Part shown: piece after piece, positions 1 through 58,386 of the stretch | How positions within the stretch are numbered: the stretch's first letter is position 1 | Layout: each line of letters starts with the position of its first letter | Source of the DNA: Candidatus Levyibacteriota bacterium | Lineage (GTDB): Bacteria; Patescibacteriota; Microgenomatia; Levybacterales; UBA12049 | Assembly (NCBI GenBank): GCA_016432345.1 | Contig: CP066685.1 | Location: 496,236-560,235, forward strand | Direction of reading: 5' to 3' | DNA: 64,000 nucleotides | Made by a program: the position numbers and the translations under genes | Notes under the pieces: model-generated | The model's database searches: none | Seen by the model: the letters and a program-made list of their open reading frames with translations, nothing else | Told to the model about the DNA's origin: nothing

Positions 1-894
1 AAGGCGGATATTCATTGGCATACCATTGAAGAACAACTAAAATTTCCTCAAATTCTTAATAAAGAAAATATTGACCTGATGCATTTTCCCTACTTTTCTG
101 TTCCTCTTTTTTATAACAAACCTTTTGTTGTTACGATTCATGACTTAATTTTGCATCATTTTCCAACAGGCCGGGCTTCTACGCTTCCACTACCAGCATA
201 CTGGTTAAAACTATTTGTGTACAGGTTTATTTTGAAAAAATCGGCACAAAAAGCGCGAAGGATACTTACTGTGTCTTATGCAACAAAAGACGAGATTGTT
301 AAGCATTTGCATGTGTCTCAAGATAAAATTATCGTTACATACGAAGGAGTAGATACTAAATCTACAAATACCAAATACCAAATACCAAATACCAAATACT
401 TTTTGTATGTTGGGAATGCGTATCCACACAAGAATCTGGAGAGATTAATAGAAGCATCCACGAGAATCAAGCTAATACTAGTTGGTAGAGAGGATTATTT
501 CTATAAAAGACTAAAGGAGAAAGTAAAAAAAATGGGATTAGAAAAACAAATAGTTTTTTATGGATATGCGACTGACGAAGAACTTTCATTTTTATATAAA
601 AATGCTGAGGCACTAATTATGCCGTCTCTTATGGAAGGATTTGGCTTGCCAGTTTTAGAGGCAATGGCTAATAAATGTTTGGTTTTGGCATCAGATATTC
701 CGGCACATAGAGAAATAGCAGGAGATGCAGTAAGTTATTTTAACCCTCTAGATGTTAGAGATATAGAAAAAAAAATGCAGAACATTCATCCAGATGATAA
801 AGTTCAGAAAGGTTTTGATAGGGCAAAAATGTTTTCATGGGAGAGAATGGCAAAGGAAACTTTAAGTATATATGAAAGTTGCGTTAGTGTATGA
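1..894 (+). CDS. Glycosyltransferase family 1 (GT4-like, GT-B fold), 5' end cut by window edge
   Basis: Frame 1 is open from nt 1 with no stop before the ATG at 79, so the gene begins upstream of the window. The C-terminal half has GT1 hallmarks (FLYVGNAYPHKN, PSLMEGFGLPVLEAMA). It carries the (CAAATAC)5 array at 365-399. Confidence 0.85.
   Translation, partial: KADIHWHTIEEQLKFPQILNKENIDLMHFPYFSVPLFYNKPFVVTIHDLILHHFPTGRASTLPLPAYWLKLFVYRFILKKSAQKARRILTVSYATKDEIVKHLHVSQDKIIVTYEGVDTKSTNTKYQIPNTKYFLYVGNAYPHKNLERLIEASTRIKLILVGREDYFYKRLKEKVKKMGLEKQIVFYGYATDEELSFLYKNAEALIMPSLMEGFGLPVLEAMANKCLVLASDIPAHREIAGDAVSYFNPLDVRDIEKKMQNIHPDDKVQKGFDRAKMFSWERMAKETLSIYESCVSV
365..399 (+). repeat. Perfect heptanucleotide tandem array (CAAATAC)x5, 35 nt, in frame in a GT1 gene
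   Basis: Period-7 identity holds exactly from 365 to 399. It encodes NTKYQIPNTKY directly before the first beta-strand of the C-terminal Rossmann domain (FLYVG). Confidence 0.97.
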
Positions 895-1954
895 TCGAGT
901 AAATAAGTGGGGAGGGGCGGAGAGAGTTTTACTTACTCTTCATGAAATGTTTCCAGACGCTCCGTTATATACTTCTGTATATGATTCAAAGAAGGCGCCA
1001 TGGGCAGATATTTTTGATATTCGAACTTCGTTTTTACAAAAATTGCCGATTTCTTTCCATCACGAATACTACCCATTTTTAATGCCGTTGGCGTTTGAAG
1101 GTTTTTCGTTTGACGATTATGATTTAGTTATTTCTGTAACATCAGAGGCAGCAAAAGGAATTATTACTAAACCACATACTTTACATATTTGTTATTGTCT
1201 GACTCCGACTCGTTATCTGTGGAGTGGTTATGAAAATTATTTTAGAAATCCATTGTTTCAGATACTTTCTTATCCATCGGTTTCTTATCTTCGTGCATGG
1301 GATTTGGTTGCAGCAAAGCGGCCAGATGCGTATATTGCGATTTCGAAAGAAGTTCAAAATAGAATAAAAAAATACTACGATCGAGAATCAGAAGTAATAT
1401 ATCCACCTGTTGAAATACCAAATACCAAATACCAAATACCAAATACTGGCTTCTTTTTAGTTGTTTCACGACTTGTATCATATAAGCGGATTGATATTGC
1501 GATAGAAGCATGTAATAGACTCCGTTTGCCGCTTAAAATTGTAGGTGTAGGATCGGAAGAAAAAAGACTAAAACGAATTGCTGGTTCCACAATTGAATTT
1601 TTAGGAAACTTGACTGATAACGAGCTGGTAAGGTATTATAAAGCGTGTCTTGCGCTTATTTTTCCCGGCAATGAAGATTTTGGGATTGTAATGGGAGAGG
1701 CAAGTCTTTTTAGTAAACCTGTTATTGCATTTAAAGGAGGAGGCGCACTTGAGATTATTAGAGAAGGAAAGACAGGTGCATTTTTTTATCCTCAAACAGC
1801 GCAAGCGTTAACAGATTGTTTAATGATATTTAAATCTAAAAGTTTTAAGGATGAGATTATAAAAGATTGCGCAGTAAGGTTTGGCAAAGATAGGTTTAAA
1901 AAGGCATTTTTTGACATGATTGCTATGTTGTATAAAGAACATAGCAAAAAATAA
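872..1954 (+). CDS. Glycosyltransferase family 1 (GT-B fold)
   Basis: 360-aa ORF with an ATG start that overlaps the upstream gene. The C-terminal Rossmann half shows FFLVVSRLVSYKRID and FPGNEDFGIVMGEA. It carries a CAAATAC array at 1412-1446. Confidence 0.85.
   Translation: MKVALVYDRVNKWGGAERVLLTLHEMFPDAPLYTSVYDSKKAPWADIFDIRTSFLQKLPISFHHEYYPFLMPLAFEGFSFDDYDLVISVTSEAAKGIITKPHTLHICYCLTPTRYLWSGYENYFRNPLFQILSYPSVSYLRAWDLVAAKRPDAYIAISKEVQNRIKKYYDRESEVIYPPVEIPNTKYQIPNTGFFLVVSRLVSYKRIDIAIEACNRLRLPLKIVGVGSEEKRLKRIAGSTIEFLGNLTDNELVRYYKACLALIFPGNEDFGIVMGEASLFSKPVIAFKGGGALEIIREGKTGAFFYPQTAQALTDCLMIFKSKSFKDEIIKDCAVRFGKDRFKKAFFDMIAMLYKEHSKK
1412..1446 (+). repeat. Heptanucleotide tandem array GAAATAC(CAAATAC)x4, 35 nt, in frame in the adjacent GT1 gene
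   Basis: Perfect period-7 identity runs from 1413 to 1446. It encodes IPNTKYQIPNT directly before FFLVVSRL, the same structural position as 365-399. Confidence 0.97.
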
Positions 1955-26797: not shown

Positions 26798-27907
26798 ATG
26801 AAAATTCTTATTACAGGAGGAGGTCACTTTTCGCCAGCAATGGCAGTAATTGAGTCGTTGCCAAAAGGCATAAGCGTATTGATGGTGGGTCGAAAGTACT
26901 CATTTGAAGGCGACAACGCGCTATCTATTGAGTATATAGTATGTCAAGAAAGAGGTATTCCATTTATTGCATTATCAACCGGAAGATTACAACGTAAGTT
27001 TACAAAATATACAATTTCCTCTCTTTTGAAAATTCCATTTGGATTTTTTAAAGCACAAAAAATAATGCGTGATTTTAAGCCAGATGTGGTGTTGTCGTTT
27101 GGCGGATATATTTCGCTGCCAGTTGTTTTGGCAGCATATGCGTTTAGGACTCCTATTGTGGTGCATGAACAAACGCTTGAAGCAGGAATGGCAAATAAAA
27201 TTGCATCGTATTTTACGAAAAAAGTTTGTATTTCATGGGAATCATCAAGAAAGTTTTTTCCGAAAAAGAAAGTTGTATTAACGGGAAACCCGATTAGAAG
27301 ATTTAAGATTAAAGATTTAAGATTAAAGATTAAAGATGACGAGAAATTGCCGATTATTTATGTAACTGGGGGGAGTTCGGGGTCGCATGCGATTAACCTG
27401 TTGGTTGAAGGATGTATTGAAGGGCTTTTGGAAAATTTCATTGTATTTCATCAAACAGGCGATGCAAAAGAATTTAATGATTTTGAAAGACTTAATACAT
27501 TTAAAAAAACTTTAAAAAGCTCGTTGCAGAAGCGGTATATTTTAGAAAAATTTGTGCCAATGCAGAATGTTGGAGAGGTAATTAATCGAGCGGATCTAAT
27601 TATATCAAGATCGGGAATCAACACAATAACAGAGCTGTTATTTTTTGGTAAACCTGCAATACTTATTCCTATAACATTTTCTCAAAGAAACGAGCAGTTG
27701 AAAAATGCTACTTTTTTGCAAGAACACGGCTTGGCAAAAGTACTGGAACAAGAGACGACAACAAGCGAAACGCTTTATCAGGAAATTTTAGAGATGCTAA
27801 AGCAGAAAAACGAATATATGAAATCCGCAAAAGAGGCAAAAAAGCTTGTTATTCCAGATGCTCGAGAAAGAATACTTGCTGTACTGCAGCAAGTTGTGAA
27901 AAAATAG
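26798..27907 (+). CDS. murG: UDP-GlcNAc:lipid I GlcNAc transferase MurG
   Basis: It is a GT28 GT-B enzyme with ITGGGHFSPA, VHEQTLEAGMANK, LTGNPIR and VTGGSSGSHAIN. It contains the period-7 cassette at 27301-27335. Confidence 0.9.
   Translation: MKILITGGGHFSPAMAVIESLPKGISVLMVGRKYSFEGDNALSIEYIVCQERGIPFIALSTGRLQRKFTKYTISSLLKIPFGFFKAQKIMRDFKPDVVLSFGGYISLPVVLAAYAFRTPIVVHEQTLEAGMANKIASYFTKKVCISWESSRKFFPKKKVVLTGNPIRRFKIKDLRLKIKDDEKLPIIYVTGGSSGSHAINLLVEGCIEGLLENFIVFHQTGDAKEFNDFERLNTFKKTLKSSLQKRYILEKFVPMQNVGEVINRADLIISRSGINTITELLFFGKPAILIPITFSQRNEQLKNATFLQEHGLAKVLEQETTTSETLYQEILEMLKQKNEYMKSAKEAKKLVIPDARERILAVLQQVVKK
27301..27335 (+). repeat. Period-7 array (ATTTAAG ATTAAAG ATTTAAG ATTAAAG ATTAAAG), 35 nt, in frame in murG
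   Basis: There are five units in two variants. It encodes FKIKDLRLKIKD in the interdomain linker just before IIYVTGGSSG. Confidence 0.93.
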
Positions 27908-33767: not shown

Positions 33768-36581
33768 ATGTTAAAACCAGTCACCTCGCAAGTTGATTTT
33801 CCCAAACTCGAGGAAGAAATTATACAGTTTTGGAAAATCAATAAAATTTTTGAAAAATCAGTTGCCAAAGAAGCGCCAAAAGGTAATTGGACATTTTTAG
33901 ATGGGCCGCCTTTTATTACAGGGCTTCCTCATTATGGTAGTTTGCTTTCTAGTATTCCCAAAGATTTATTTCCCCGTTTTAAAACCATGCAGGGGTATAG
34001 GGTTAGACGTGTTTGGGGTTGGGATTGTCATGGTCTTCCGGCGGAAAATAAAGTGGAAAACAAATTGAGTATTACCCGCAAAAAAGATATTGAAGAAAAA
34101 ATAGGAGTTAAAAAATTTATTGACGAATGTAAATTGTATGTTAAGGATGTGTCTTCGGAATGGGAATGGTATGTAGACCACGTTGGCCGCTGGGTTGATT
34201 TTAAAAATGCCTACAAAACCATGGACTTACCATATATGGAGACAGTGATGTGGGTATTTAAACAAATGTACGACAAGGGTTATATTTACAAAGGTCTTCG
34301 GGTGTCGCTTTATTGCCCACATTGCTCAACGCCAATATCAAACTTTGAGGTTGCGATGGATGTTGATAATTATAAAGAGATAACTGATGCGGCAACAACA
34401 TATAAATTTGAGTTGCAAGATGAACTAAAGACGTTTATTCTTGCTTGGTCAACAACTCCCTGGAATAAAATTGTTACTCCTGCGTTGGCAGTTAATCCAA
34501 AATTGACTTATGTAAAAGTTAAGCAAGGTAACGAAAATTATATTTTAGCTAAAACAACTCTAAAAATACTTACTGGAGATTACAAAATTGTGGAAGAATT
34601 TAAAGGGGCAAAACTTGTGGGCATGCAGTATGTTCCGCATTACGATTATTATCCAATCGAAAAAGGCAAACAAGCATTTGTGATTATTCCTGGTGATTTT
34701 GTTACAGCAGAAGAAGGCACAGGAGTTGTAACAATTGCTGCTTATGGGGAAGAAGATTTAAAAGCCATGCAGGAAAATAATATCCATATTGAAATGCATC
34801 TGGACGAAGAAGGAACAATCAAACAAGATGTAGCACTTTTTGGCGGGATGTACTATCTTAAGGCGAATAAAGCCGTCAACGAAGATTTGGCAAAGAGGGG
34901 TTTAATTTATAAAGACGAGCAGTTGCCTCACAATGTTCCATTATGTTGGCGGTGTCATACTCGTTTGTATTATGGGCCGCAGAATGCCTGGTACGTGAAT
35001 GTGCAGAAATTAAAAAAAGAAATGAAGGAAACAAATGAGACTACTAATTGGTTTCCCAAACATTTTAAATATGGCCGATTTTTAAAAAGCTTAGAAGCAG
35101 CGCCAGATTGGTGTATTTCAAGAAGTCGTTATTGGGGATCGCCTGTGCCGGTATGGGAGTGTACATGCGGACAGCGGATAGTACCCGGTTCAATTAGAGA
35201 ATTAGAAGAATTCTCCGGTAAAAAAATTACAGATTTGCACAAACCCGAAATTGACGAAGTAATTATTAAATGTTTATCATGCGGCAAGAATGCAAAACGG
35301 GTCACCGAAGTTTTGGATAGCTGGATCGAAGCAGGTTCTGCGTCGTTTGCCGAACGCCATTTTCCTTTTAATAAAAGCGTAAAACTTACCGATTTTTTCC
35401 CACCCGATTTTATTGTGGAATATACAGGACAAATCCGCGCCTGGTTTTATGTGTTGCATGTGATTACAAATGCTTTGTATAAATCAAACGCCTACAAAAA
35501 TGTTGTGGTAACAGGAGTTATTTTAGGGACCGATGGCAGGAAGATGAGTAAAAATTACGGCAATTATCCAGATCCGAAAGAAATGCTGCAAAAATATGGC
35601 GGTGATGCACTGCGACTTTACTTAATGGGAAGTCCTGTGATGCATGGAGAAGATATCCTTATTTCTGAAGAACAATACAAACAACAAGTTAAAGGCACCA
35701 TACTTATTTTGTGGAATGTGTACAATTTTTTCGTATCAAATGCGATCGTTGACCAGTATCAAGTGTTAAGTATAAAGTATAAAGTATCAGAGAATATATT
35801 AGATCAATGGATCGTTTCATTGCTACAGAAGTTGATAAAAGAAATAACAGATGCTTTAGAAAAATACGATACTATTTTGGCTATAAAAGAAGCAGAAGGA
35901 TTTGTTGGTGATCTTTCGACTTGGTACATCAGGCGAAGTAGAGATAGGGTGGGAGCTGCGGTAGAAAATAGTAAAGATAAAAGGGCGTTTTATGAAACAA
36001 CATATTATGTGTTAACAACTCTTTGTAAACTTCTTGCGCCCATTATGCCATTTATTACAGAAGAGATGTATAAAAATTTAACAGGGGAGGAATCGGTTCA
36101 TTTATCGGATTGGCCGCGAACAGATCAAAGATTAAAGATCAAAGATCAAAGAATAGAAATCGAAATGGAGCAAGGTATACAACTTGCGTCAAAAGTGCAT
36201 GCTTTACGAAAACAGACAAATATCAAAGTTCGTATCCCTCTTAGAAAATTATCATACAAAGGACCAGAGGAACTTATAAAAGAAGTAAAGAAGGTTGTTT
36301 TGGATGAGGTGAATGTATACGAATTAGTTTATGCGGGCAAGAGTGATAATTATGAAGTTTCTGGTGATACAAGTCAAAAAAATCAGGATATCGAAGCAGG
36401 AAAAGCGCGGGATATTATTCGAAGTATTCAAGAAGAGCGAAAAAAACTTGGCACCAGCCTTGATGAATATGTTGATGTTGTTATCGAATCCTGGCCAAAA
36501 GAATTTGAAAATACAATCAAAAAGAAAGCGCTAGTTAAAACGCTTATTAAAGGTAATCAATTTAACGTTGTTAGAATATGA
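33768..36581 (+). CDS. ileS: Isoleucine--tRNA ligase (type 2, eukaryote/archaeal-like)
   Basis: The sequence shows GPPFITGLPHYG (HIGH variant), KMSKNYGN (KMSKS), a CP1 editing domain and WCISRSRYWG. It contains period-7 cassettes at 35755-35789 and 36123-36157. Confidence 0.95.
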   Translation: MLKPVTSQVDFPKLEEEIIQFWKINKIFEKSVAKEAPKGNWTFLDGPPFITGLPHYGSLLSSIPKDLFPRFKTMQGYRVRRVWGWDCHGLPAENKVENKLSITRKKDIEEKIGVKKFIDECKLYVKDVSSEWEWYVDHVGRWVDFKNAYKTMDLPYMETVMWVFKQMYDKGYIYKGLRVSLYCPHCSTPISNFEVAMDVDNYKEITDAATTYKFELQDELKTFILAWSTTPWNKIVTPALAVNPKLTYVKVKQGNENYILAKTTLKILTGDYKIVEEFKGAKLVGMQYVPHYDYYPIEKGKQAFVIIPGDFVTAEEGTGVVTIAAYGEEDLKAMQENNIHIEMHLDEEGTIKQDVALFGGMYYLKANKAVNEDLAKRGLIYKDEQLPHNVPLCWRCHTRLYYGPQNAWYVNVQKLKKEMKETNETTNWFPKHFKYGRFLKSLEAAPDWCISRSRYWGSPVPVWECTCGQRIVPGSIRELEEFSGKKITDLHKPEIDEVIIKCLSCGKNAKRVTEVLDSWIEAGSASFAERHFPFNKSVKLTDFFPPDFIVEYTGQIRAWFYVLHVITNALYKSNAYKNVVVTGVILGTDGRKMSKNYGNYPDPKEMLQKYGGDALRLYLMGSPVMHGEDILISEEQYKQQVKGTILILWNVYNFFVSNAIVDQYQVLSIKYKVSENILDQWIVSLLQKLIKEITDALEKYDTILAIKEAEGFVGDLSTWYIRRSRDRVGAAVENSKDKRAFYETTYYVLTTLCKLLAPIMPFITEEMYKNLTGEESVHLSDWPRTDQRLKIKDQRIEIEMEQGIQLASKVHALRKQTNIKVRIPLRKLSYKGPEELIKEVKKVVLDEVNVYELVYAGKSDNYEVSGDTSQKNQDIEAGKARDIIRSIQEERKKLGTSLDEYVDVVIESWPKEFENTIKKKALVKTLIKGNQFNVVRI
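33838..33872. repeat. 35-bp direct repeat, copy 2 (native ileS codons 24-35, WKINKIFEKSVAKE)
   Basis: It is identical to 32773-32807. It lies in the conserved N-terminal region of IleRS, upstream of the PPFITGLPHYG (HIGH-type) motif. Confidence 0.95.
35755..35789 (+). repeat. Degenerate period-7 array (AGTATCA AGTGTTA AGTATAA AGTATAA AGTATCA), 35 nt, in ileS
   Basis: It has five units of consensus AGTRTYA. It encodes QYQVLSIKYKVS. Confidence 0.8.
36123..36157 (+). repeat. Period-7 array (GATCAAA GATTAAA GATCAAA GATCAAA GAATAGA), about 35 nt, in ileS
   Basis: It has four clear units and one degenerate unit. It encodes DQRLKIKDQRI and shares AGATTAAAGAT(T/C)AAAGAT (17/18 nt, same reading frame, peptide RLKIKD) with the murG array. 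Confidence 0.88.
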
Positions 36582-37660: not shown

Positions 37661-37687
37661 ATAGTTTGTTATAATTATCTTTTGTGT

Positions 37688-38099: not shown

Positions 38100-38144
38100 A
38101 AAGAATAATTTTTAATTTTTCACTTTAACTTTTAATTTATTTTT

Positions 38145-39959: not shown

Positions 39960-40662
39960 CAGATTGAGATAATCTAATCCATGTTTCTGCAGTTGCCGCG
40001 ATATCTTTCCAGCGTTTTCCTAAAAGGGCGCCGACATGGCTTACTCCTTTGAATTTAAAATAGTCCGCATTATAGTATTTTGCAATTTCTAGACTAACTT
40101 TTGGTGTTATATCAACGTCTGCTCCGCCAGAAATAACTAATACTCTTGCTTTAATTTTTTCTTTGTTTATTGATAATCCGCTTCGTAGTTGTTTAATTAC
40201 TTTTCCAGATTCATCCCGCCACTGCGGGTGAGCCCATAAAATTGTTTTTTTCGTTGCCTCGGGCATGCAGTCAGTGGTATCTTGTAATGTGGATTCTGTG
40301 CTCCATTTTATAACATCCGGCACATGTGTAGATTTTTTAATTGGCCAAGGTGGAGCGCTGTTTACCAATACAATTTTAGCAACATCTTCGACTTCTCCAA
40401 TTTTTTGGGCCAGCCAGCCGCCCATGCTTGCGCCTATCACAATTGGTTTTTGTTTGATTGTCGCAACTATTTTTTGTAGCTGTTTGACATAGTCAAAAAT
40501 ACTAACATCCTTGAGGGGTTTTTTGTTTCCGTTGAGTGTTGGCGCATAGCATCTATATTCGTGTGACTCAAAATATATTTTCCAGTATTCCCATTCCCAT
40601 CCGCCGCCGCCTGCGCCGTGGATAAAAATAATTGGCGGTTTTTTGTTTATTTTTCTTTCCAT
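39919..40662 (-). CDS. Alpha/beta-fold hydrolase, last gene of the TPP-riboswitch operon
   Basis: It has IFIHGAGGGGWEW and the nucleophile elbow GASMGGW. Its start overlaps the permease stop by 16 nt. Its 3' 41 nt are antisense to tRNA-Val. Confidence 0.7.
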   Translation of the reverse strand: MERKINKKPPIIFIHGAGGGGWEWEYWKIYFESHEYRCYAPTLNGNKKPLKDVSIFDYVKQLQKIVATIKQKPIVIGASMGGWLAQKIGEVEDVAKIVLVNSAPPWPIKKSTHVPDVIKWSTESTLQDTTDCMPEATKKTILWAHPQWRDESGKVIKQLRSGLSINKEKIKARVLVISGGADVDITPKVSLEIAKYYNADYFKFKGVSHVGALLGKRWKDIAATAETWIRLSQSVDLDGFEPSAFRM

Positions 40663-43206: not shown

Positions 43207-43292
43207 TTCCTTCGTCGGCATTACCCGAACAGGTTCAAAGGGTCGTCGCCTTAAGCAACCTCTCAGCCCATCTATTGAGCTCCCCTATTTAT
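43207..43292 (-). promoter_or_regulatory. TPP (THI-box) riboswitch
   Basis: The minus strand reads ...AUAGGGGAGCUCAAUAGAUGGGCUGAGAGGUUGCUUAAGGCGACGACCCUUUGAACCUGUUCGGGUAAUGCCGACGAAGGAAAUG. The conserved CUGAGA, ACCCUUUGAACCUG and GGUAAUGCC..CG.AGG blocks are all present. Its 3' end contains the SD/start codon. Confidence 0.85.
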
Positions 43293-43298
43293 GTGATT

Positions 43299-45215: not shown

Positions 45216-48200
45216 TTATAACATTTTCCTCATTTTAAGATAAGATAATCCTGTTGCTCCAAATAACAAAACCCCAGCAATCGGCAAAAAATTTATTTTA
45301 TTTTTTTCTTGCAGAGTTGGTTTATCTGCAGATTTGGATTCGACAGTTTGCTGATCTAATTTTGATTCTTTTTTGAGTTCTTCTTTTGGTTTTGGTTCTA
45401 TTTTTGCTCCCAGCACATTTTCTTTAAAGCCCGCTGCCGCGCCTTGTTCGGAAAATCCAATTGGCGTAGCGGCAATTTCGTTGGAGTAATCTCCTGGGGT
45501 ACATCCATTGCCCGCCCGTACTCTAAAATAATATGTCTGTCCGCCGGAGAGATTTTCTACCACAAAATTGGTTGTTCCTTTTCCTCCAATGTTGGGGTTG
45601 CCATACTGCAATTTTCCAGGCTCTGTTCCATAGGCAATAAGGTAATACGAAATTGGCCCCGCCCCTTCTTTCCATGATAGTGCGACGGTGTTGATGCCGG
45701 CAAAAGTGGAAGTGAGGGTAGGCGCGCTTTGTGGCTTTTCGTCGTTGCAAGTTGCAGCAGAGGTGGAGTTTGAAGATGTAGAAGATGAGGAACTAGAACT
45801 TGAAGCAGTTACTGTCGGTGTTGGTGTCGGAGTCGGAGTTGGAGTAGGTGTTGGTGTGGGAGTGAGCGTTGGGTCGCTGGCAAGGGTAATACTTCGTTCG
45901 TCGGTTACCTGCTCGGGCGAGCCGCGGGAAATAAGGCGGTAGTAGTAGGTTTTTCCAGGCAGCAAATCGGTGATTGTTACAGAATGGTTTTTTGTTTTTG
46001 TTGGTTTTTCGTCGGTTCCATTGTCGTATCCATATTTAGTTCCAGAGCCTTTGACTTTTTTTGACTGGCTGCCAAAAACAACGCGACTATACGATGGTCT
46101 ATCGGTTGTCCAGGTAACAGTAAAAGAAGTCGCGGTATTTTCGGCAACGGTTATTGACGTATCGTCAATTTTTGGGGCGATTTCATATTCTTCTGTGAGC
46201 GTGTCGCTTAGATTACCTGCAGTATCTTTTGCTACCGTTTTGAGTGTTACACTGCTGCCGTCAATTATAATTGGCGCAACGTAGATGAGTCTGGCGCTGG
46301 AGGTGGAAGGATCTGTTCCATCGAGGGTATAAAAAATGGTAGGTTTATTAGGTGCATCAAGACTTGTAATTTCAATTGATCGTGGTTTTAGATATTTATC
46401 TCCTGGAATGTCCACTGTAGGTTTGGTTGGAGGAATGCCATCTGTTGGAGTGGTAGTTTGTTGGTTATTCCATTTGTCTGATGAGATATCTTTAATGCCA
46501 GTTCCTGTTCCATTTCCTTTGAGGGTAACAATCGGTGTTTTTCCTGCGTCATTTGGTTCTGTTGTTTCTTCAATAGTTATTGTAACTTTGTTTTTCTCAT
46601 TGCCATCTCGTTTTGCGGTAACAACTTTGTATCCTTCAACATTAAAATCAGAATTATTGCTTGATTCATTTACTGTGTTCGCGTTTACATCCCGTACAAA
46701 AGTTACCTCAATTTTATCTATTTTGCCGTTGTTATTGGTATCAAGGGTTTTGGTGCTTTTTATTTGCGGTGGTGTGGTATCAGTTGGTGTTGTATCGTTG
46801 CTTTCGCCATTTTGTTTATATCCCAGAGAAAACGTCGCCGGCTCATCATTTTTTGTTTGGCTCGAAATTTTGTTTACAGTTGCGCTGCCAGTTGCTGTAT
46901 GTCGATACGTTTCAAGCTTAAATTGGTTTATGACAGCGCTTGTTGTTGCAACAGTAATGCTATATGTGTCGTTATTTGGTTTAGGTATTAGCAGCATTTT
47001 ATAGTCTGGACTTGTAGTTTCGCTTATTGGATCTTTAATGCCATGCTCTAGATAATAGATAGCGTTTGGTATATCGGTATAGGTGGTTGTGCCATTACTG
47101 CCTGCTTTTTGACCACTGCTATTTGTTAGATATATGTCAACATCTGGGTCTACAACAACTATTAGATACGAAAGATTCGTATTAGAAGGGATAAATCGTC
47201 TCATGGAAAGAAAAGTATCGTTGTATGAGGCTAAAGTTGTCCTCTCATCGTAAAAAGGATCGTTAATATCAAAAGTTGTTCCATTGATTCCCTTGGCAAC
47301 AATAAAATGTCCTGGTTCTTCAAGTATTACTGGATTATTACTATCTAATTGGTTTTTTAATTTAGTTTTGTCATTGTCGCCCCACACAAATTCTAAGGCA
47401 TCAAAATCAGTGATATTATTTACTGTTTTTGCAAGTTTGGATAAGTCGGCTATGGCTGCCCAATTTACTTTGCCTCGTATATAGCCACCATCGCCACCTT
47501 CATAATTTTTTAACCAAAGATTTAGAGTATCTGGTTGGAGATCAGATCCATCTGGCAATTTTTTAATACCATAGTAATTAAGTATCATTGCAGCCGATGT
47601 CATAGCACATCCCCAGCGATTGATTGTTGTTGCTTCTCCAGTTTTTGCCCAATCGGTTGCAGTGTCATATTCTAATCCCTGCCACGGCTCCGAAGTTTGC
47701 TTAAGTAGCGGAACATCGAGCGGAGAATCGATGTTCGTAACAACAATGTTATCAAACCAGACTTCTGAATCTGGATCTGCGCCAACGCTTGCTTGAAGAC
47801 CAATTGTTCCACCATCAAAATAAGGCGAAGAATCCTCCAATTTCCAGATTTCATCATTGTTAATAAATAATTTAATTACATTTTTAGAAAATTCTATTTT
47901 AAAATGGTATGTTTGGTTATCCTGAAAAGAATATGATTTTTGTTCTACTCGATAGTAACTTCCTATAACTTTTTGAAAGTATATAGTTGATCCGTAAGTC
48001 ATAAAGTCATACCAATTAGAGGAGTCTAAATACTTAAATAGGATGTTTCTATTAGCTATAGCTGTGTTTTTATATTCCATATCAAAGCTGTACGAGTATC
48101 CAATAAAGCCAGAAAGATCAAAATTGTTTGGAATAATTTCAGTTGTGCAACTTGGACCGTTTATTCTAATACCAGCCTTGCCATTTTCTATATTCCAAGT

Positions 48201-48404
48201 AGTAGGGATACCCCCGTACAAACAGGACTTTGATGTATTTGAGTATTGTGTGTTTCTTTTAACAGCCCAATTATTTAAATTTCCTGTATCAAAGTTTTCT
48301 TGGAATACTTTATGAGAGGCAAAGCTTTGTGAAGTAAAAAATAGACTAATAAAAGCCAAAAAAATAAAAACAAAAAGAAACCTGAGGGCCATCAGTTTCT
48401 TCAC
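45216..48404 (-). CDS. Large multidomain surface protein: signal peptide, LamG/ConA-like lectin, C39-like cysteine peptidase, Ig/FN3-like repeats, (TP)n/poly-Ser linker, FN3 and C-terminal anchor
   Basis: 1062 aa. The C39-like core carries Cys in RWGCAMTSAAMILNYYG and His in PGHFIVAKG. FYTLDGTDPS is chitobiase-C-like. TVTWTTDRPSYSRVVFG and LSWKEGAGPISYYLIAYG are FN3-like. The C-terminus LPIAGVLLFGATGLSYLKMRKML is a hydrophobic segment followed by a basic tail. Confidence 0.8.
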   Translation of the reverse strand: MKKLMALRFLFVFIFLAFISLFFTSQSFASHKVFQENFDTGNLNNWAVKRNTQYSNTSKSCLYGGIPTTWNIENGKAGIRINGPSCTTEIIPNNFDLSGFIGYSYSFDMEYKNTAIANRNILFKYLDSSNWYDFMTYGSTIYFQKVIGSYYRVEQKSYSFQDNQTYHFKIEFSKNVIKLFINNDEIWKLEDSSPYFDGGTIGLQASVGADPDSEVWFDNIVVTNIDSPLDVPLLKQTSEPWQGLEYDTATDWAKTGEATTINRWGCAMTSAAMILNYYGIKKLPDGSDLQPDTLNLWLKNYEGGDGGYIRGKVNWAAIADLSKLAKTVNNITDFDALEFVWGDNDKTKLKNQLDSNNPVILEEPGHFIVAKGINGTTFDINDPFYDERTTLASYNDTFLSMRRFIPSNTNLSYLIVVVDPDVDIYLTNSSGQKAGSNGTTTYTDIPNAIYYLEHGIKDPISETTSPDYKMLLIPKPNNDTYSITVATTSAVINQFKLETYRHTATGSATVNKISSQTKNDEPATFSLGYKQNGESNDTTPTDTTPPQIKSTKTLDTNNNGKIDKIEVTFVRDVNANTVNESSNNSDFNVEGYKVVTAKRDGNEKNKVTITIEETTEPNDAGKTPIVTLKGNGTGTGIKDISSDKWNNQQTTTPTDGIPPTKPTVDIPGDKYLKPRSIEITSLDAPNKPTIFYTLDGTDPSTSSARLIYVAPIIIDGSSVTLKTVAKDTAGNLSDTLTEEYEIAPKIDDTSITVAENTATSFTVTWTTDRPSYSRVVFGSQSKKVKGSGTKYGYDNGTDEKPTKTKNHSVTITDLLPGKTYYYRLISRGSPEQVTDERSITLASDPTLTPTPTPTPTPTPTPTPTVTASSSSSSSSTSSNSTSAATCNDEKPQSAPTLTSTFAGINTVALSWKEGAGPISYYLIAYGTEPGKLQYGNPNIGGKGTTNFVVENLSGGQTYYFRVRAGNGCTPGDYSNEIAATPIGFSEQGAAAGFKENVLGAKIEPKPKEELKKESKLDQQTVESKSADKPTLQEKNKINFLPIAGVLLFGATGLSYLKMRKML
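45813..45863 (-). repeat. Coding hexanucleotide repeat encoding (Thr-Pro)8-Thr linker, followed by a poly-Ser run
   Basis: TPTPTPTPTPTPTPTPT is encoded with varied synonymous codons. The adjacent SSSSSSSSTSS run is at about 45769-45810. Confidence 0.9.
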
Positions 48405-49952: not shown

Positions 49953-50981
49953 ATGACTATACTTTTTTTTGCCAGGTTGTTTTGGCCTCATGGGGGTGGG
50001 GTGGAGACGCATGTTTTGGAAGTGGGGAAAAGGTTAATTGGAAAAGGATATAAGGTTGTAGTTGTTACCGAATTATTAGCAAAGACAAAAGAAAAAGAAA
50101 ATATAGGGGGGATTGAGATTTTTAGAATTCCGGTTGGGAAAGATAATTGGTTTAAGAAATTTAGAATTTGGAAGTGGTTTTGGCAAAACAGAAAGTTAAT
50201 CCAGCAAGCAGATATTGCGCATGCTCACGACGTTTTCTTTTGGTACCTGCCTTTTCGTTTTCTCTATCTTAACAAACCAATCTATACTACCTTCCATGGC
50301 TACGAAACAAAATTCCCTCCGGCAAAGAAAGCAATTTTCGTTCGTAGGCTAAGCGAGAAGCTCTCTTGGGGAAACATTTGTGTAGGAGACTATATTAAAA
50401 AGTGGTACAAGACAAAACCGAACTACATTACTTACGGAGGCGTGAACGTCCACCTCGGAGGAGTCATGGTTTCGCAAGCTCAGCAGCCTGCCACCATCCG
50501 AGGTGAAGACCAAAAACTTAACATACTTTTCATCGGGAGATTGGAGGAGGATATTGGGATTAGCTTGTATTTACAAGCTATACGAAAGATGAAAAAGACC
50601 AGAAATGTAGATGTTATTTTTTTGGGAGATGGGAGTTTTCGACATGAGGCAGAGAAGTTGGGCAGAGTTACAACATTTCAAGAGAAGTTTGTCGTCCAGG
50701 CAGATGTGGTATTTGCCTCTTCATATCTTTCGATGCTGTCTGCCATGGCTGCCAAAAAACCAGTTGTTGCCGTGTATACAAATTCTCTAAAAAAAGATTA
50801 CTTAACTATGACACCGTTTGCAAAGTTTATAACGATTGTTGATTCTCTTGATAAGATTGTGGATACAGTAAAAAATTTAGAGAAAACAAACCAGATGGTC
50901 GATCAGGCATATGACTGGGTAAAAGGTCAGACATGGGAGAAGATAGTTAATCTATATATAAAATTGTGGAAGATGAATTAA
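49953..50981 (+). CDS. Glycosyltransferase family 1 (GT-B)
   Basis: The sequence shows FWPHGGGVETHV and ILFIGRLEEDIG. A locally GC-rich stretch lies at about 50434-50510 in the interdomain linker. Confidence 0.8.
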   Translation: MTILFFARLFWPHGGGVETHVLEVGKRLIGKGYKVVVVTELLAKTKEKENIGGIEIFRIPVGKDNWFKKFRIWKWFWQNRKLIQQADIAHAHDVFFWYLPFRFLYLNKPIYTTFHGYETKFPPAKKAIFVRRLSEKLSWGNICVGDYIKKWYKTKPNYITYGGVNVHLGGVMVSQAQQPATIRGEDQKLNILFIGRLEEDIGISLYLQAIRKMKKTRNVDVIFLGDGSFRHEAEKLGRVTTFQEKFVVQADVVFASSYLSMLSAMAAKKPVVAVYTNSLKKDYLTMTPFAKFITIVDSLDKIVDTVKNLEKTNQMVDQAYDWVKGQTWEKIVNLYIKLWKMN

Positions 50982-51041: not shown

Positions 51042-51992
51042 ATGAAGATAAGTTTTATTTCGACTGTTTACAATGAGGAGAAGACGATTGGATGGATGCT
51101 AGAGAGTTTGGCAAAACAGACGAGGATGCCAGACGAGATGATTATTGTAGATGGAGATTCAACCGACAGTACGCTGTCGGTAATTTTCAATTTTCAATTT
51201 TCAATTTTCAATCAAAACACAAAAAATAAATTTTCAAAAATAAAAATACTTACAAAAAAAGGGAATCGGGCGGTGGGACGAAATGAGGCGATAAGAAATG
51301 CGACAGGCGATATTATTGTATGTTCGGATGCGGGATGCCAGTTGGATAAGGATTGGGTGAAGAATATTGTGAAGCCGTTTGAAAATCCAAAAGTAGATGT
51401 TGTCGCAGGGTACTATGCAGCAAAGCCACAATCGATCTTTCAAAAATGCCTGGTGCCATATGTGCTTGTTATGCCAGATAAGATTGACCCTAAAAATTTT
51501 CTTCCGGCATCCCGCACAATGGCATTTAGAAAATCTATTTGGGAAAAAGTTGGTGGGTTTCCAGAAAGATACTCGCATAACGAAGATTATGTTTTTGCAA
51601 AGAAGTTAAAGCACATTGGAGTAAATATCGTTTTTGCCAAAGATGCCATTGTTTACTGGATGCCTCGAAAGAATCTAAAGCAAGCATTCATTATGTTTTT
51701 CCGCTTTGCCTTTGGCGACGCAGAAGCTCGTATTTTTCGCCCAAAAGTTTTTTTGATTTTCGTTCGTTATTTATTTGTATTTTTTCTCATTTTTTTACTT
51801 ATTGGTTTTCAACTATACGCTATACGCTATACGCTATACGCTATGTTTTTATTGTACGTGACGTGGTCTGTTTGGAAGAACTACAAATACGTTGCAGACT
51901 GGCGCGCAATCGTAATTTTGCCTATACTACAAATAACTGCTGATATTGCAGTAATTTTGGGAACGATATGGGGTATACAACACAGGCAATAA
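51042..51992 (+). CDS. Glycosyltransferase family 2 with C-terminal TM region
   Basis: The sequence shows ISFISTVYNEE, IIVDGDSTDST, GRNEAIRNA and CSDAG, with C-terminal hydrophobic helices. It carries cassettes at 51183-51213 and 51813-51844. Confidence 0.85.
   Translation: MKISFISTVYNEEKTIGWMLESLAKQTRMPDEMIIVDGDSTDSTLSVIFNFQFSIFNQNTKNKFSKIKILTKKGNRAVGRNEAIRNATGDIIVCSDAGCQLDKDWVKNIVKPFENPKVDVVAGYYAAKPQSIFQKCLVPYVLVMPDKIDPKNFLPASRTMAFRKSIWEKVGGFPERYSHNEDYVFAKKLKHIGVNIVFAKDAIVYWMPRKNLKQAFIMFFRFAFGDAEARIFRPKVFLIFVRYLFVFFLIFLLIGFQLYAIRYTLYAMFLLYVTWSVWKNYKYVADWRAIVILPILQITADIAVILGTIWGIQHRQ
51183..51213 (+). repeat. Perfect heptanucleotide array (AATTTTC)x4.4 in a GT2 gene
   Basis: Period-7 identity holds from 51183 to 51213. 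It encodes IFNFQFSIFN just after the DGDSTDST motif. Confidence 0.95.
51813..51844 (+). repeat. Perfect heptanucleotide array (CTATACG)x4.6 in the same GT2 gene
   Basis: Period-7 identity holds from 51813 to 51844. It encodes LYAIRYTLYAM within the C-terminal hydrophobic region. Confidence 0.95.
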
Positions 51993-53191
51993 AAGGGATT
52001 TCGTGGGTTGGTCTTCTTCGGGGAACGACGCGAATTGTATCATTTGCAAAAATTGCCATTCTGGCCAGAATTTTAACCCCAGCCCAATTTGGCGTGTATG
52101 GCATTGCCGCACTTGCCCTGTCTTTTTTAGATGTCCTGACCGAGACAGGAGTAAATGTTATTTTAATACAAGAAAAAGACGATATTGACCGACATATCAG
52201 TTCGGCATGGATTGTGTCGATAGCGCGAGGAATTTTAATGTCGGGGGTTATATTGGTTATGGCGCCGTTTGTTGCTGGTTTTTTCCAAAGCCCTGATTCG
52301 CTTTTTTTGTTGCAGCTAATTAGTATTGTGCCTTTGCTTCGCGGATTTATTAACCCTTCGGTGGTAAAGTTTCAAAGAGATTTACAGTTTAAGAAAGAGT
52401 TTTTATACCGGTCGGTGTTGTTCGTAATCGATGCTGGTACGGCGGTTGCAGTTGCCTTTGCCACTCATCAAGCGGCAAGTATTGTGGTTGGGTTGATTGT
52501 GGGGGTGGTTGTCGAAGCAGTATTGTCTTTTGTTGTTGCGAAGCCAAGGCCAACACTGCGGTTTGAAAACGAGTATATTGCCAAGATATTTCATAGGGGA
52601 AAATGGGTAACATTGTCGGGAGTATTCCAGTACTTATTCCAAAATGTCGACAACATTGTGGTTGGTAAGTTGCTTGGTACTGGGTCGCTTGGGCTTTATC
52701 AGCTTGGGTATTCCATATCTATTTTACCAATTAGCGAAGTGGCAGATGTGGTATCTCGGGTGACTTTTCCTGTTTATACAAAGATAGCAGATGATACCGA
52801 CAGGCTTCGTAAAGCATTTATGCGGACTGTTATGATTATTGCATGCGTTACGATTCCTTTTGGGATTATTTTGTTTTTCTTTTCCGAACAGCTAATTACT
52901 CTTGTATTTGGAAAGCAGTGGGTGGGTGTTGTTCCCGCTCTTCGAGTTTTGGCTATTTTTGGCGTTATTCGCGCAGTGTTTGGTTTTTGCGCCACGCTTT
53001 TTTTGGCAGTTGGAAAGCAAGAATATATTACCGTGGCAACGCTTGCAAGTATTACAGCCATGGGATTAGTTATTGTGCCGTTTGTTAATTCGTTTGGGTT
53101 GATTGGCGCAGCGTATGCAGCACTTGTTGGGTCAGTTTTTGGGAGCATTGTTTTTAGTTTTTTTACCATTAAGGTTTTGTATTCTAAATGA
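51968..53191 (+). CDS. Polysaccharide biosynthesis protein / Wzx-like MOP-family flippase
   Basis: 407 aa with about 12 TM helices. The N-terminus KGISWVGLLRGTTRIVSFAKIAILARILTPAQFG is typical of PST-family flippases. Confidence 0.78.
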   Translation: MGYTTQAIKGISWVGLLRGTTRIVSFAKIAILARILTPAQFGVYGIAALALSFLDVLTETGVNVILIQEKDDIDRHISSAWIVSIARGILMSGVILVMAPFVAGFFQSPDSLFLLQLISIVPLLRGFINPSVVKFQRDLQFKKEFLYRSVLFVIDAGTAVAVAFATHQAASIVVGLIVGVVVEAVLSFVVAKPRPTLRFENEYIAKIFHRGKWVTLSGVFQYLFQNVDNIVVGKLLGTGSLGLYQLGYSISILPISEVADVVSRVTFPVYTKIADDTDRLRKAFMRTVMIIACVTIPFGIILFFFSEQLITLVFGKQWVGVVPALRVLAIFGVIRAVFGFCATLFLAVGKQEYITVATLASITAMGLVIVPFVNSFGLIGAAYAALVGSVFGSIVFSFFTIKVLYSK

Positions 53192-57690: not shown

Positions 57691-57763
57691 GCCGATGTAG
57701 CTCAGTTGGTAGAGCGGCGCTTTCGTAAAGCGTAGGTCGCAGGTTCGATCCCCGCCATCGGCT
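57691..57763 (+). tRNA. tRNA-Thr (anticodon CGT)
   Basis: Manual cloverleaf: acceptor GCCGATG/CATCGGC, D arm GCTC/GAGC, anticodon stem GCGCT/AGCGT with loop TTCGTAA, and T loop TTCGATC. There is one A-C mismatch in the T stem, and CCA is not encoded. Confidence 0.88.
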
Positions 57764-58386
57764 CACCTTTTTGTTTCGAGAAATTTTTTACCATGTCCGA
57801 CTGTAGTGTTGATAGGCACATTATTTTTACACAGTGGGCAATTAGCTTCATCATAATTTTGGGTAAATAATTCGTCTAAGGCATAAAATGGAATTCCCAT
57901 ACTTTCGGAATTAACGTTTTTTGGATCTCTATTAACCATTACTCCGACTGCTATAGCATATCCTCCATGTTCTTGCACGCTATTTATGACTTTTTTTACA
58001 GAGCCGCCGGTGGTTGTTAGGTCTTCCACAATCAAGACATTTTTGTCTTTTACAAATCTTTCGTAGCCGCGGGTAAAGATTTGATTTTTTTCCAGAGTTT
58101 TTTCGGTATATACGCCAAAAATCTTTTTATTTTTTAATTTTGATAAATGATATGCAGTCCATTGCGATAAAATTATTCCGCCTAAAGCCGGGCCAACAAC
58201 CACATCTATATCCATATCTTTAAATTTTTCTGCAAATAATTTTCCAACTTGGGACGCTTTATCGGTGTGAGGATACATGGCGTCTTTATTAATATAAATT
58301 GGCGAGTGTTTACCAGATGTTAAAACAAAATGATCGTTGGTAATTAGCGCACCGGTTTCTTTAAGTATGTCAAAAACAGTTTTCAT
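57763..58386 (-). CDS. pyrE: Orotate phosphoribosyltransferase
   Basis: It has the PRPP-binding motif VLIVEDLTTTGGS and a type I PRTase fold, and sits in pyr context. Confidence 0.85.
   Translation of the reverse strand: MKTVFDILKETGALITNDHFVLTSGKHSPIYINKDAMYPHTDKASQVGKLFAEKFKDMDIDVVVGPALGGIILSQWTAYHLSKLKNKKIFGVYTEKTLEKNQIFTRGYERFVKDKNVLIVEDLTTTGGSVKKVINSVQEHGGYAIAVGVMVNRDPKNVNSESMGIPFYALDELFTQNYDEANCPLCKNNVPINTTVGHGKKFLETKR

What the first reader, a model, noticed from the sequence alone, without database searches (positions are those of the whole stretch)
51183..51213. Perfect (AATTTTC)n array in a GT2 glycosyltransferase
A 31-nt perfect period-7 run, plus a degenerate fifth unit AATCAAA, encodes IFNFQFSIFN right after the nucleotide-sugar-binding DGDSTDST segment. 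A change of one unit would truncate the enzyme. This is a candidate ON/OFF switch in the second polysaccharide locus.
Basis: partly seen in the sequence, partly recalled or inferred. Interest (0 to 1): 0.7.

Follow-up and report, generated by a model that had tools for sequence, protein, structure and literature searches.

The report
In-frame heptamer repeat, doubtful switch
The perfect 7-base repeat in this glycosyltransferase gene is real, but it is one of many such short repeats written in frame into all kinds of genes (including essential ones) in this group of ultra-small bacteria, so it is more likely a by-product of a 7-base DNA slippage bias than a dedicated ON/OFF switch.

Summary
A perfect (AATTTTC)4.4 tract lies at 51182-51212 in a 316-aa GT2 gene of a Candidatus Levyibacteriota (CPR) genome, and ±1 or ±2 units truncate the protein to 57-71 aa.

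The same gene holds a second perfect heptamer array, (CTATACG)4.6 at 51813-51844. Period 7 is the only period with perfect arrays of at least 3 units in the window. In 1.44 Mb of related DNA, period 7 gives 73 arrays against 2, 2 and 5 for periods 6, 8 and 9, and 92% lie inside ORFs.

Equally perfect 4-5-copy arrays sit in IleRS, ArgRS and GuaA genes, which cannot be switches. At the GT2 site, orthologues carry arrays with lineage-specific units or non-repetitive sequence, mostly in a 60- or 66-nt segment. The array encodes helix 44-57.

Perfect arrays at this site are always 27-34 nt, and none of about 100 GT2 genes is frameshifted there. One relative (L102) has a 2-unit deletion and frameshift at the second array site.

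Best reading: a clade-wide in-frame heptamer microsatellite class. A true contingency switch is possible (about 0.2) but unsupported.

The parts
51182..51212 (+). Array 1: perfect (AATTTTC)4.4, 31 nt. It encodes VIFNFQFSIFN (aa 47-57), most of helix H44-57 of the GT-A domain.
51813..51844 (+). Array 2: perfect (CTATACG)4.6, 32 nt. It encodes LYAIRYTLYAM (aa 258-268), the start of a C-terminal membrane helix. ±1 or ±2 units give products of 270-302 aa.
51042..51992 (+). GT2 glycosyltransferase ORF (316 aa) with a GT-A fold and C-terminal membrane helices. Substrate unknown.
365..399 (+). Perfect (CAAATAC)5 array in GT4 ORF 79-894, at the inter-domain linker (TNTKYQIPNTKY).
1413..1446 (+). Perfect (AAATACC)4.9 array, the same unit as at 365-399, in a second and only distantly related GT4 ORF (872-1954). 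It sits at the equivalent linker and the flanks are unrelated.
27292..27337 (+). Degenerate heptamer array (GATTAAA/GATTTAA, 6.4 copies, 87% matches) in MurG, at the inter-domain linker. In-frame stops are avoided by unit variants.
35755..35787 (+). Degenerate heptamer array (AGTATAA, 4.7 copies) in IleRS, just before the anticodon-binding domain.
36122..36152 (+). Degenerate heptamer array (AGATCAA, 4.4 copies, 91% matches) in IleRS, within the anticodon-binding domain.
38106..38138 (.). Degenerate heptamer array (TAATTTT, 4.9 copies, 74% matches) lying between ORFs 37682-38059 and 38408-39250.
51968..53191 (+). Wzx-like flippase (Polysacc_synt_3) overlapping the GT2 stop. The GT2-flippase pair is conserved in L081. 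Given as context for what an OFF state would affect.

Best explanation
The (AATTTTC)4.4 tract is one instance of a lineage-wide class of short heptanucleotide microsatellites embedded in frame in protein-coding DNA of Levybacteria (CPR).

Shown:
- Period 7 alone is in excess.
- The arrays lie overwhelmingly in ORFs.
- They recur at the same permissive positions (helices and inter-domain linkers) of GT2, GT4, MurG, IleRS and other proteins.
- At the two GT2 sites, most array-bearing lineages have the same segment length as array-free orthologues (60 or 66 nt at site 1, 75 nt at site 2; this window has 81 nt at site 1).
- Units are lineage-specific, yet the arrays stay perfect across divergences at which synonymous sites are saturated.
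- Coding arrays are almost always 4-5 copies.

Inferred:
- A replication or repair misalignment bias in 7-nt register creates and re-homogenises the arrays. This is the polymerase-footprint slippage idea attributed to Mrazek et al. 2007. It could act through ±3-unit contraction and expansion, through misalign-copy-realign conversion, or both.
- Purifying selection passes only arrays that are in frame, free of stops in all three phases of the unit, and compatible with a helix of about 10-12 residues.

Under this reading the array encodes an ordinary structural helix of the enzyme. It is not a regulatory device. Occasional ±1 or ±2-unit slips produce null alleles as a mutational by-product, as seen once in L102.
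For: - Period-7 specificity. The window has 4 perfect arrays of at least 3 units at period 7 and none at periods 4-15 otherwise, with 0 expected. In 1.37 Mb of related loci the counts are 24 for period 7 against 2, 3, 1 and 0 for periods 5, 6, 8 and 9. TRF gives 73 against 2, 2 and 5, and 67 of the 73 lie in ORFs of at least 150 aa.
- Essential genes carry equally perfect arrays: IleRS-type genes in L005 (32 nt), L008 (34 nt) and L070 (24 and 28 nt), and ArgRS and a GuaA-type GATase (33 nt each, antisense phase). MurG and IleRS in the window carry decayed ones.
- Same site, different units. Nine of the 24 perfect arrays lie at GT2 site 1, with units AATTTCC, AATTTCA, AATCTCA, AAAATTA and TCAAAAG. 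The segment is mostly 60 or 66 nt with or without an array. Site 2 is 75 nt in nearly all of 81 lineages, and about 12 have arrays with differing units.
- DNA-level maintenance. Between the window and L081 the genes are 68% identical in nucleotides and identical-aa codons match 47% of the time, but 10 of 10 match in the array. The longest identical run is 31 nt (the array), against 13 nt for the next longest. Five (AATTTCC) lineages are 50-61% identical in protein, with third-position identity of 0.34-0.47.
- Copy number is capped. Near-perfect coding arrays are 20-37 nt, mostly 27-35. All 21 uninterrupted arrays from an unbiased metagenome scan are 27-34 nt.
- Structure. Array 1 is helix 44-57 and array 2 is the start of a membrane helix.
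- Literature. Heptanucleotides are reported as the most abundant long-SSR class in most bacterial genomes, and a polymerase-slippage cause has been proposed.
Against: - The mechanism is inferred, not shown. Simple slippage does not by itself explain why arrays leave segment length unchanged, or why they stay perfect with the same unit in lineages with saturated synonymous sites.
- Persistent perfection is also what second-order selection for mutability would produce.
- All four perfect arrays in this window are in glycosyltransferase genes, whereas the MurG and IleRS arrays here are decayed. Taken alone, that pattern fits contingency loci. Perfect IleRS arrays in relatives weaken it.
- L102 shows that unit-level indels giving frameshifts do occur at these arrays.
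- No read-level or same-species data could be examined.
- Density was not compared with non-CPR genomes.
Confidence: 0.6

Rival explanations
1. True contingency locus. Slipped-strand mispairing changes the number of AATTTTC units at appreciable frequency, switching the GT2 between full-length and a roughly 60-aa stub. This varies a surface glycan within the population of an episymbiotic bacterium.
For: - The tract is perfect, its unit is not divisible by 3, and it lies early in the ORF. ±1 or ±2 units truncate the protein.
- The gene lies in a glycan cluster.
- All four perfect arrays of the window are in GT genes.
- The array is kept perfect at the DNA level over deep divergence.
- A natural 2-unit deletion and frameshift exists at array site 2 in L102.
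Against: - Identical-type perfect arrays occur in IleRS, ArgRS and GuaA-type genes.
- There are only 4.4 copies, against 13-24 in the hmw heptanucleotide switch.
- Copy number is invariant across lineages, at 27-34 nt in all 21 unbiased arrays, and L081 is identical.
- None of 24 perfect GT-gene arrays that were not selected on protein integrity is out of frame, which gives a 95% upper bound of about 12%.
- None of 82 orthologues is frameshifted at site 1.
- There is no bias towards the 5' end: array 2 and the GT4 arrays are in the middle or late part of their genes.
Confidence: 0.2
2. The arrays spread between genes as DNA, either by ectopic gene conversion between paralogous glycosyltransferase genes or as a small mobile cassette. 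They do not arise locally.
For: - An identical 34-nt (AAATACC) array occurs in two adjacent, distantly related GT4 genes with unrelated flanks.
- TCGGT plus (AATTTCC)4.x was found in at least 5 different GT2 subfamilies and in two reading phases.
- A genuinely dispersed palindromic mini-element shares the same permissive sites.
Against: - In arrays found without a flank requirement, TCGGT occurs only at the homologous GT2 site, where it encodes Ser-Val (4 of 13). Arrays in other genes have unrelated flanks.
- Units differ between loci and between lineages.
- Array-bearing segments mostly have the same length as array-free ones, so they are not insertions.
Confidence: 0.08
3. The periodic DNA, or its mRNA, is itself functional and under direct selection. 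It could be a binding site for a heptamer-reading protein or a translation-rate element.
For: The array is conserved at the DNA level beyond codon constraint. Two intergenic arrays in relatives abut start codons, as reported for TAACTGA repeats in Beggiatoaceae, where binding of cold-shock proteins to heptamer repeats was discussed.
Against: - Units are highly diverse, so there is no common motif.
- Arrays occur in either orientation relative to the gene.
- Many orthologues lack any periodicity at the same place.
Confidence: 0.07

Closest known systems
SSR contingency loci in LOS/LPS glycosyltransferase genes of Haemophilus, Neisseria and Campylobacter (for example lic2A, lgtC, lgtA, wlaN; recalled from my own knowledge)
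   Same: A perfect repeat whose unit is not divisible by 3 lies inside a glycosyltransferase ORF. One unit more or less gives a frameshift and truncation.
   Different: Those tracts are longer and polymorphic between and within strains, OFF alleles are common among isolates, and they are confined to contingency-type genes. Here there are 4.4 copies, the copy number is invariant across lineages, no OFF allele occurs at this site, and the same arrays occur in aminoacyl-tRNA synthetase genes.
hmw1A/hmw2A heptanucleotide (ATCTTTC)n phase-variable SSR of H. influenzae (PMC8262952)
   Same: A tandem 7-nt unit of similar AT-rich composition.
   Different: It lies in the promoter rather than the ORF, has 13-24 copies, grades transcription, and has been shown experimentally to vary.
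Over-represented heptanucleotide long SSRs of bacterial genomes (Mrazek et al. 2007, as summarised in PMC4679880 and PMC4692102)
   Same: There is a sharp excess of period 7 over neighbouring periods with many different units. The slippage explanation proposed there fits this case.
   Different: Repeats with units not divisible by 3 are described there as mostly non-coding. Here 92% are inside ORFs, they mostly leave segment length unchanged, they are capped at about 4-5 copies, and they recur at homologous protein sites across deep divergence.
Cyanobacterial STRR, Xanthomonas/Nostoc GGGNATC and Beggiatoaceae TAACTGA heptamer repeats
   Same: They are tandem heptamers. Some intergenic arrays in relatives also abut start codons.
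   Different: In those systems one or a few fixed units are reiterated at many intergenic loci. Here the units are diverse and the arrays are mostly coding.
Hypervariable 9-mer (PTD) repeat gene of a Gracilibacterium (PMC6851277)
   Same: A tandem repeat inside a CPR gene, discussed there in terms of slipped-strand mispairing.
   Different: The 9-nt unit is always in frame, the array is very long and hypervariable, and it affects a single gene.

Membership tests
SSR contingency locus (slipped-strand phase variation) | A perfect tandem repeat, with a unit not divisible by 3, inside the ORF or promoter | tested here: met
   (AATTTTC)4.4 with 100% matches at 51182-51212 inside the GT2 ORF
SSR contingency locus (slipped-strand phase variation) | Gain or loss of one unit abolishes the product | tested here: met
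   In silico, ±1 or ±2 units give 57-71 aa and ±3 units stay in frame
SSR contingency locus (slipped-strand phase variation) | Repeat number varies within or between populations, including out-of-frame alleles | tested here: inconclusive
   No second sample of this species exists in the collections searched. Proxies are negative at this site: L081 has the same 31 nt, 21 of 21 unbiased arrays are 27-34 nt, and no site-1 frameshift occurs in 82 orthologues or in the further GT2 genes. One 2-unit deletion and frameshift occurs at site 2 in L102. Read-level heterogeneity cannot be tested with these tools.
SSR contingency locus (slipped-strand phase variation) | Tract length in the range that gives high slippage rates | tested here: not met
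   4.4 copies here. No perfect coding array exceeds about 5 copies. The characterised heptanucleotide switch hmw works at 13-24 copies.
SSR contingency locus (slipped-strand phase variation) | Repeats concentrated in contingency-type genes (surface, restriction-modification) rather than housekeeping genes | tested here: not met
   Perfect arrays occur in IleRS-type genes (L005, L008, L044, L070), ArgRS (L098) and a GuaA-type GATase (L103). Decayed arrays occur in MurG and IleRS of the window.
Over-represented heptanucleotide long SSRs of bacteria (Mrazek 2007) | A sharp excess of period 7 relative to neighbouring periods | tested here: met
   Window: 4 against 0, with 0 expected. Relatives: 24 against 2, 3, 1 and 0. 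TRF: 73 against 2, 2 and 5.
Over-represented heptanucleotide long SSRs of bacteria (Mrazek 2007) | Many different unit sequences | tested here: met
   More than 15 distinct units among the 24 perfect arrays, and lineage-specific units at homologous sites
Over-represented heptanucleotide long SSRs of bacteria (Mrazek 2007) | Units not divisible by 3 lie mainly outside coding regions | tested here: not met
   67 of 73 arrays lie in ORFs of at least 150 aa.
Sequence-specific dispersed heptamer repeats (STRR, TAACTGA, GGGNATC) | One or a few fixed heptamers reiterated at many, mostly intergenic, loci | tested here: not met
   Units are diverse and the arrays are mostly coding. Only two intergenic arrays in relatives abut start codons.
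GT2 glycosyltransferase (GT-A fold) | Pfam PF00535 above the gathering score, and a GT-A fold with a DxGS/DxD nucleotide-sugar site | tested here: met
   PF00535 at 87.1 bits against a cutoff of 23.3. AF2 model pLDDT 88.8. Foldseek probability 1.00 to GT2 structures, with the best full-length matches being membrane GT2s 6yv7 and Chlorella virus hyaluronan synthase.

The most novel reading that the evidence does not exclude
Levybacteria, and perhaps other Microgenomates, have an active homogenising process in 7-nt register. It writes and maintains perfect heptanucleotide arrays of fixed size (about 30-34 nt) inside protein-coding genes, including essential ones. As a result, short helical or linker segments of many proteins are encoded by self-perpetuating microsatellites. 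In dispensable glycosyltransferase genes these frameshift-prone tracts would then act as low-frequency surface-glycan switches, which would be the first SSR phase variation described in the CPR.
Probability: 0.3. Interest if true: 0.65.

Novelty: new variant of a known kind. Interest (0 to 1): 0.4.

Why it matters
If the switch reading were right, it would be the first evidence that CPR episymbionts vary their surface glycans by slipped-strand phase variation. That would bear on how they attach to hosts and evade phage. My evidence points instead to something more general. A whole CPR lineage tolerates microsatellites with units not divisible by 3 inside coding DNA, including aminoacyl-tRNA synthetase genes, and actively keeps them perfect at recurrent protein sites.

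This has three consequences:
- It gives a concrete natural system for testing the long-standing but untested idea that bacterial DNA polymerases slip preferentially in 7-nt register.
- It shows how selection filters such mutations into helix-encoding segments.
- It warns against calling phase-variable genes from repeat presence alone in these genomes.

Tried and rejected
1. Within-species length variants. In the 90%-identity protein clusters of orthologues, three pairs differed by exactly 7 aa (3 units). All proved to be alternative start-codon calls with identical array regions.
2. Exact-protein look-up of the window GT2 found no other contig. A metagenome scan with this species' flanks and any array length found nothing. 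No population data are therefore available.
3. I first thought perfect arrays were confined to dispensable GT genes and decayed ones to essential genes, as in the window. This was rejected when perfect 32-34-nt arrays turned up in IleRS-type genes of relatives and in ArgRS and GuaA-type genes.
4. Insertion model. Array-bearing and array-free orthologues mostly have the same segment length, 60 or 66 nt at site 1 and 75 nt at site 2. The arrays are therefore not simple insertions.
5. Cassette or flank signature. The TCGGT left flank was imposed by my search pattern. It is not a property of arrays in non-homologous genes.
6. Four metagenome hits in short ORFs were checked as possible OFF alleles. 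L099 and L106 are intergenic arrays in an unrelated organism with large PAS-domain proteins. L084 and L088 are degenerate arrays.
7. Rfam and tRNA scans of the window showed nothing at or near the arrays.
8. Literature searches found no report of heptamer arrays or SSR phase variation in CPR. Mrazek 2007 itself is not held in the library and is cited only through two papers that summarise it.

Full report
OBSERVATION. The window has 37% G+C. Its GT2 protein is 100% identical to a protein annotated from a Candidatus Levyibacteriota MAG on a 762,565-bp contig. At 51182-51212 there is a perfect 31-nt run, AATTTTC x4.4, followed by AATCAAA. The run lies in ORF 51042-51992 (+, 316 aa), which matches Pfam Glycos_transf_2 at E=1.7e-24. 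It encodes VIFNFQFSIFN (aa 47-57) directly after IIVDGDSTDST. In 300 third-order Markov simulations of the window no perfect period-7 run reached 21 nt. In silico, -2, -1, +1 and +2 units give products of 57, 64, 64 and 71 aa, and ±3 units keep the frame.

The array is not alone.
- The same ORF has a second perfect heptamer array, (CTATACG)4.6 at 51813-51844 (aa 258-268).
- Two GT4 genes at the start of the window carry perfect (AAATACC) arrays at 365-399 and 1413-1446.
- Decayed heptamer arrays lie in MurG (27292-27337) and IleRS (35755-35787, 36122-36152).
- Among periods 1-15, period 7 is the only one with perfect arrays of at least 3 units, apart from one (ATT)5.

CLADE-WIDE PATTERN. I fetched 80 related loci (1.37 Mb) from species-representative genomes through the GT2 family.
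- Perfect arrays of at least 3 units number 24 for period 7, against 2, 3, 1 and 0 for periods 5, 6, 8 and 9.
- A TRF census that tolerates imperfection, over 1.44 Mb, gives 73 arrays for period 7 against 2, 2 and 5 for periods 6, 8 and 9. Of the 73, 67 lie inside ORFs of at least 150 aa.
- Near-perfect coding arrays are 20-37 nt long, mostly 27-35 nt, and no perfect coding array is longer.
- The 24 perfect arrays are distributed as follows: 9 at the same site of the GT2 orthologue, 1 at GT2 site 2, 7 in GT4 genes, 5 in IleRS-type genes (L005 32 nt, L008 34 nt, L044 21 nt, L070 24 and 28 nt), and 2 intergenic arrays directly upstream of start codons.

THE GT2 SITES IN ORTHOLOGUES. The segment between DGGSxDxT and KxGNR is mostly 60 or 66 nt. 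This holds whether it carries a perfect array, a decaying array or no periodicity at all.
- Perfect arrays: AATTTCC in L005, L015, L023, L044 and L057; AATTTCA in L006; AATCTCA in L011; AAAATTA in L010; TCAAAAG in L040.
- No periodicity: for example L058 and L078.
- Contracted 42-48-nt states exist. The window and L081 have 81 nt.
- P0035 reads SVISN-KNVK where L044 reads SVISN[FQFPISN]KNVK, a difference of exactly 3 units.

Site 2 is 75 nt in nearly all of 81 lineages. About a dozen of them have arrays there with related but lineage-specific units: CTATACG, TTTATAC, ACTTAAT, TCTATTA and CTTTCTG.

The AlphaFold model has mean pLDDT 88.8. It places array 1 in helix 44-57, the helix after the nucleotide-binding loop, and array 2 at the start of membrane helix 259-284. 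Foldseek confirms a GT-A GT2, and the best full-length matches are membrane-embedded GT2s. In most lineages the arrays therefore occupy ordinary helix-coding sequence without changing its length. They are not insertions.

DNA-LEVEL MAINTENANCE. L081 (P0004) is 66-67% identical in protein. It carries exactly the same perfect 31-nt (AATTTTC)4.4 array, and its flanks have diverged. Across the two genes, third codon positions are 50% identical and identical-aa codons match 47% of the time, but 10 of 10 match in the array. The array is the longest identical run at 31 nt, against 13 nt for the next. Five lineages that share a perfect (AATTTCC) array are only 50-61% identical in protein, with third-position identity of 0.34-0.47. 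Something keeps or re-creates the periodicity at the DNA level. Selection on the protein cannot produce a 7-nt period, because the unit is read in all three phases.

TESTS OF THE SWITCH HYPOTHESIS.
(a) No second sample of this species exists. The nearest protein is 69% identical, the exact-protein look-up was empty, and a metagenome scan with the flanks and any array length found nothing.
(b) All 80 related loci have the GT2 in one frame. That set was ranked by protein match, however, and is biased against frameshifts.
(c) For an unbiased sample I scanned metagenome contigs for TCGGT plus three AATTTYM units only, and found 30 contigs. All 21 uninterrupted arrays are 27-34 nt. They lie in at least five different GT2 subfamilies at the same structural site, in a GT4 linker, in a membrane protein, and in antisense phase in ArgRS and a GuaA-type amidotransferase. 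Two are intergenic in an unrelated organism. None of the genes is frameshifted at the array that was searched for.
(d) I counted perfect GT-gene arrays of at least 27 nt that were not selected on protein integrity: 4 in the window, 4 in neighbouring genes of relatives, and 16 in the metagenome set. None of the 24 is out of frame, which gives a 95% upper bound of about 12%.
(e) The characterised heptanucleotide switch at hmw works at 13-24 copies.
(f) In favour of slippage: L102 has an intact site-1 array. At site 2 it lacks exactly 14 nt (2 units) relative to L010, L021 and L001, which frameshifts the gene after residue 244. I cannot exclude that this is an assembly error.

MECHANISM. The literature held here reports that heptanucleotides are the most abundant long-SSR class in most bacterial genomes. 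It also reports that a slippage bias set by the polymerase footprint was proposed, and that units not divisible by 3 are normally rare in coding DNA. My best explanation (0.6) is that Levybacteria show a strong form of this bias. Misalignment in 7-nt register creates and re-homogenises the arrays, through ±3-unit contraction and expansion, through misalign-copy-realign conversion, or both. Selection then passes only arrays that are in frame, free of stops in all three phases, and compatible with a helix of about 10-12 residues at a permissive site.

Several features fit a selection filter:
- The MurG array alternates GATTAAA with GATTTAA exactly where GAT-TAA would be a stop.
- Copy number is quantised, with nearly all coding arrays at 4.x copies, whereas intergenic arrays are 3.4, 4.6, 5.6 and 7.3 copies.
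- Coding-strand units are rich in A and poor in G.

The GT2 array is then a structural helix encoded by a microsatellite. Frameshift nulls are a by-product.

Rivals:
- A true contingency switch (0.2).
- Spread of arrays by ectopic conversion or as a cassette (0.08). This is weakened because the TCGGT flank is confined to the homologous site.
- A functional periodic DNA or RNA element (0.07).

COMPARISON AND NOVELTY. The finding resembles SSR contingency loci in two defining features and fails or is inconclusive on three (see the membership test). It belongs with the known heptanucleotide SSR excess. It differs in being overwhelmingly coding, in mostly leaving segment length unchanged, in being capped at 4-5 copies, in recurring at homologous protein sites, and in being present in essential genes. 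I found no report of this in CPR. The nearest CPR precedent is a 9-mer hypervariable repeat in a Gracilibacterium. I rate it a new variant of a known kind, with interest 0.4.

CAVEATS. All sequences are consensus assemblies, so minority alleles are invisible. The related loci are centred on a glycan cluster, so gene-category statistics are biased. I did not compare array density with non-CPR genomes. The proposed mechanism is inference.

Noticed in passing
window ~50446-50505 (inside GT4 ORF 49953-50981); also L001:10160-10215, L001:10352-10371, L001:9002-9037, L029:10160-10215, L029:9490-9530, L081:77-123, L048:7531-7578: A dispersed miniature GC-rich inverted-repeat element of about 40-60 nt, with conserved ends CACCTCGGAGGAGTC...CCGAGGTG, is inserted in frame in protein-coding genes. 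In the window it encodes ..VHLGGVMVSQAQQPATIRGE.. at the GT4 inter-domain linker. The 56-nt copy is 100% identical between L001 and L029, whose GT2 proteins are only 72% identical. It folds as a hairpin (z = -2 to -6). It resembles Rickettsia palindromic elements and occupies the same permissive sites as the heptamer arrays.
   Followed up: partly
L007:~10160-10189, L012:10155-10174, L070:10155-10174, L016:10153-10192, L086 and L089 at the array: Other short GC-rich palindromic inserts of 20-40 nt sit in frame in the middle of the GT2 site-1 heptamer array, with array halves on both sides. No other copies were found in the loci held.
   Followed up: partly
window 365-399 and 1413-1446: Two adjacent, distantly related GT4 genes carry the identical (AAATACC) array at the structurally equivalent linker, just before the first strand of the C-terminal domain. 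The flanking DNA is unrelated. This could reflect ectopic conversion between arrays or independent origin.
   Followed up: partly
L102 (OBEQ010909974.1), minus strand, ~8330-8480: A natural 14-nt (2-unit) deletion inside the GT2 site-2 heptamer array frameshifts the gene after residue 244. It is the only frameshifted GT2 allele seen among about 100 genes. An assembly error cannot be excluded.
   Followed up: yes
L005:15399-15449 and L035:14595-14619: Intergenic heptamer arrays abut the start codon of the downstream gene, at 0 and 3 nt. On the gene strand they read (TATAAGT)7.3 and (AACCTAA)3.6. The placement recalls the TAACTGA repeats upstream of start codons in Beggiatoaceae.
   Followed up: no
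L011:9965-12556, L015:9980-12559, L101 (861-aa ORF): In three relatives the GT2 and the downstream Wzx-like flippase form one continuous ORF of about 860 aa. In the window the two genes overlap by 25 nt in different frames.
   Followed up: no
L091, L100, L110 versus L092, L109 and others: The same DNA, ATCGGT(AATTTCC)n, is read in two different phases in different GT2 subfamilies (..AIG-NFQFPISNFQF.. and ..AS-VISNFQFPISN..). Both give the same cyclic peptide. A heptamer array yields the same periodic peptide in every reading phase, and only the exit frame matters.
   Followed up: no
L099:~1139-1170 and 7539-7559; L106:1939-1968, 2224-2251, 2272-2306: (AATTTTC)3.4-5.6 arrays occur in intergenic DNA of an unrelated organism, on contigs with a 1574-aa PAS-domain protein. 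Heptamer arrays with this unit are therefore not confined to CPR.
   Followed up: no
window 45216-48404 (-), with repeats at 45813-45863: A 1062-aa protein with Peptidase_C39-like, fn3, CHB_HEX_C and other surface-type domains lies next to the glycan cluster. It contains a period-6/12 (GTCGGA) in-frame repeat.
   Followed up: no
window 43190-43296 (-), 39888-39960 (+), 57691-57764 (+): A TPP riboswitch, tRNA-Val(CAC) and tRNA-Thr(CGT). None is related to the finding.
   Followed up: no
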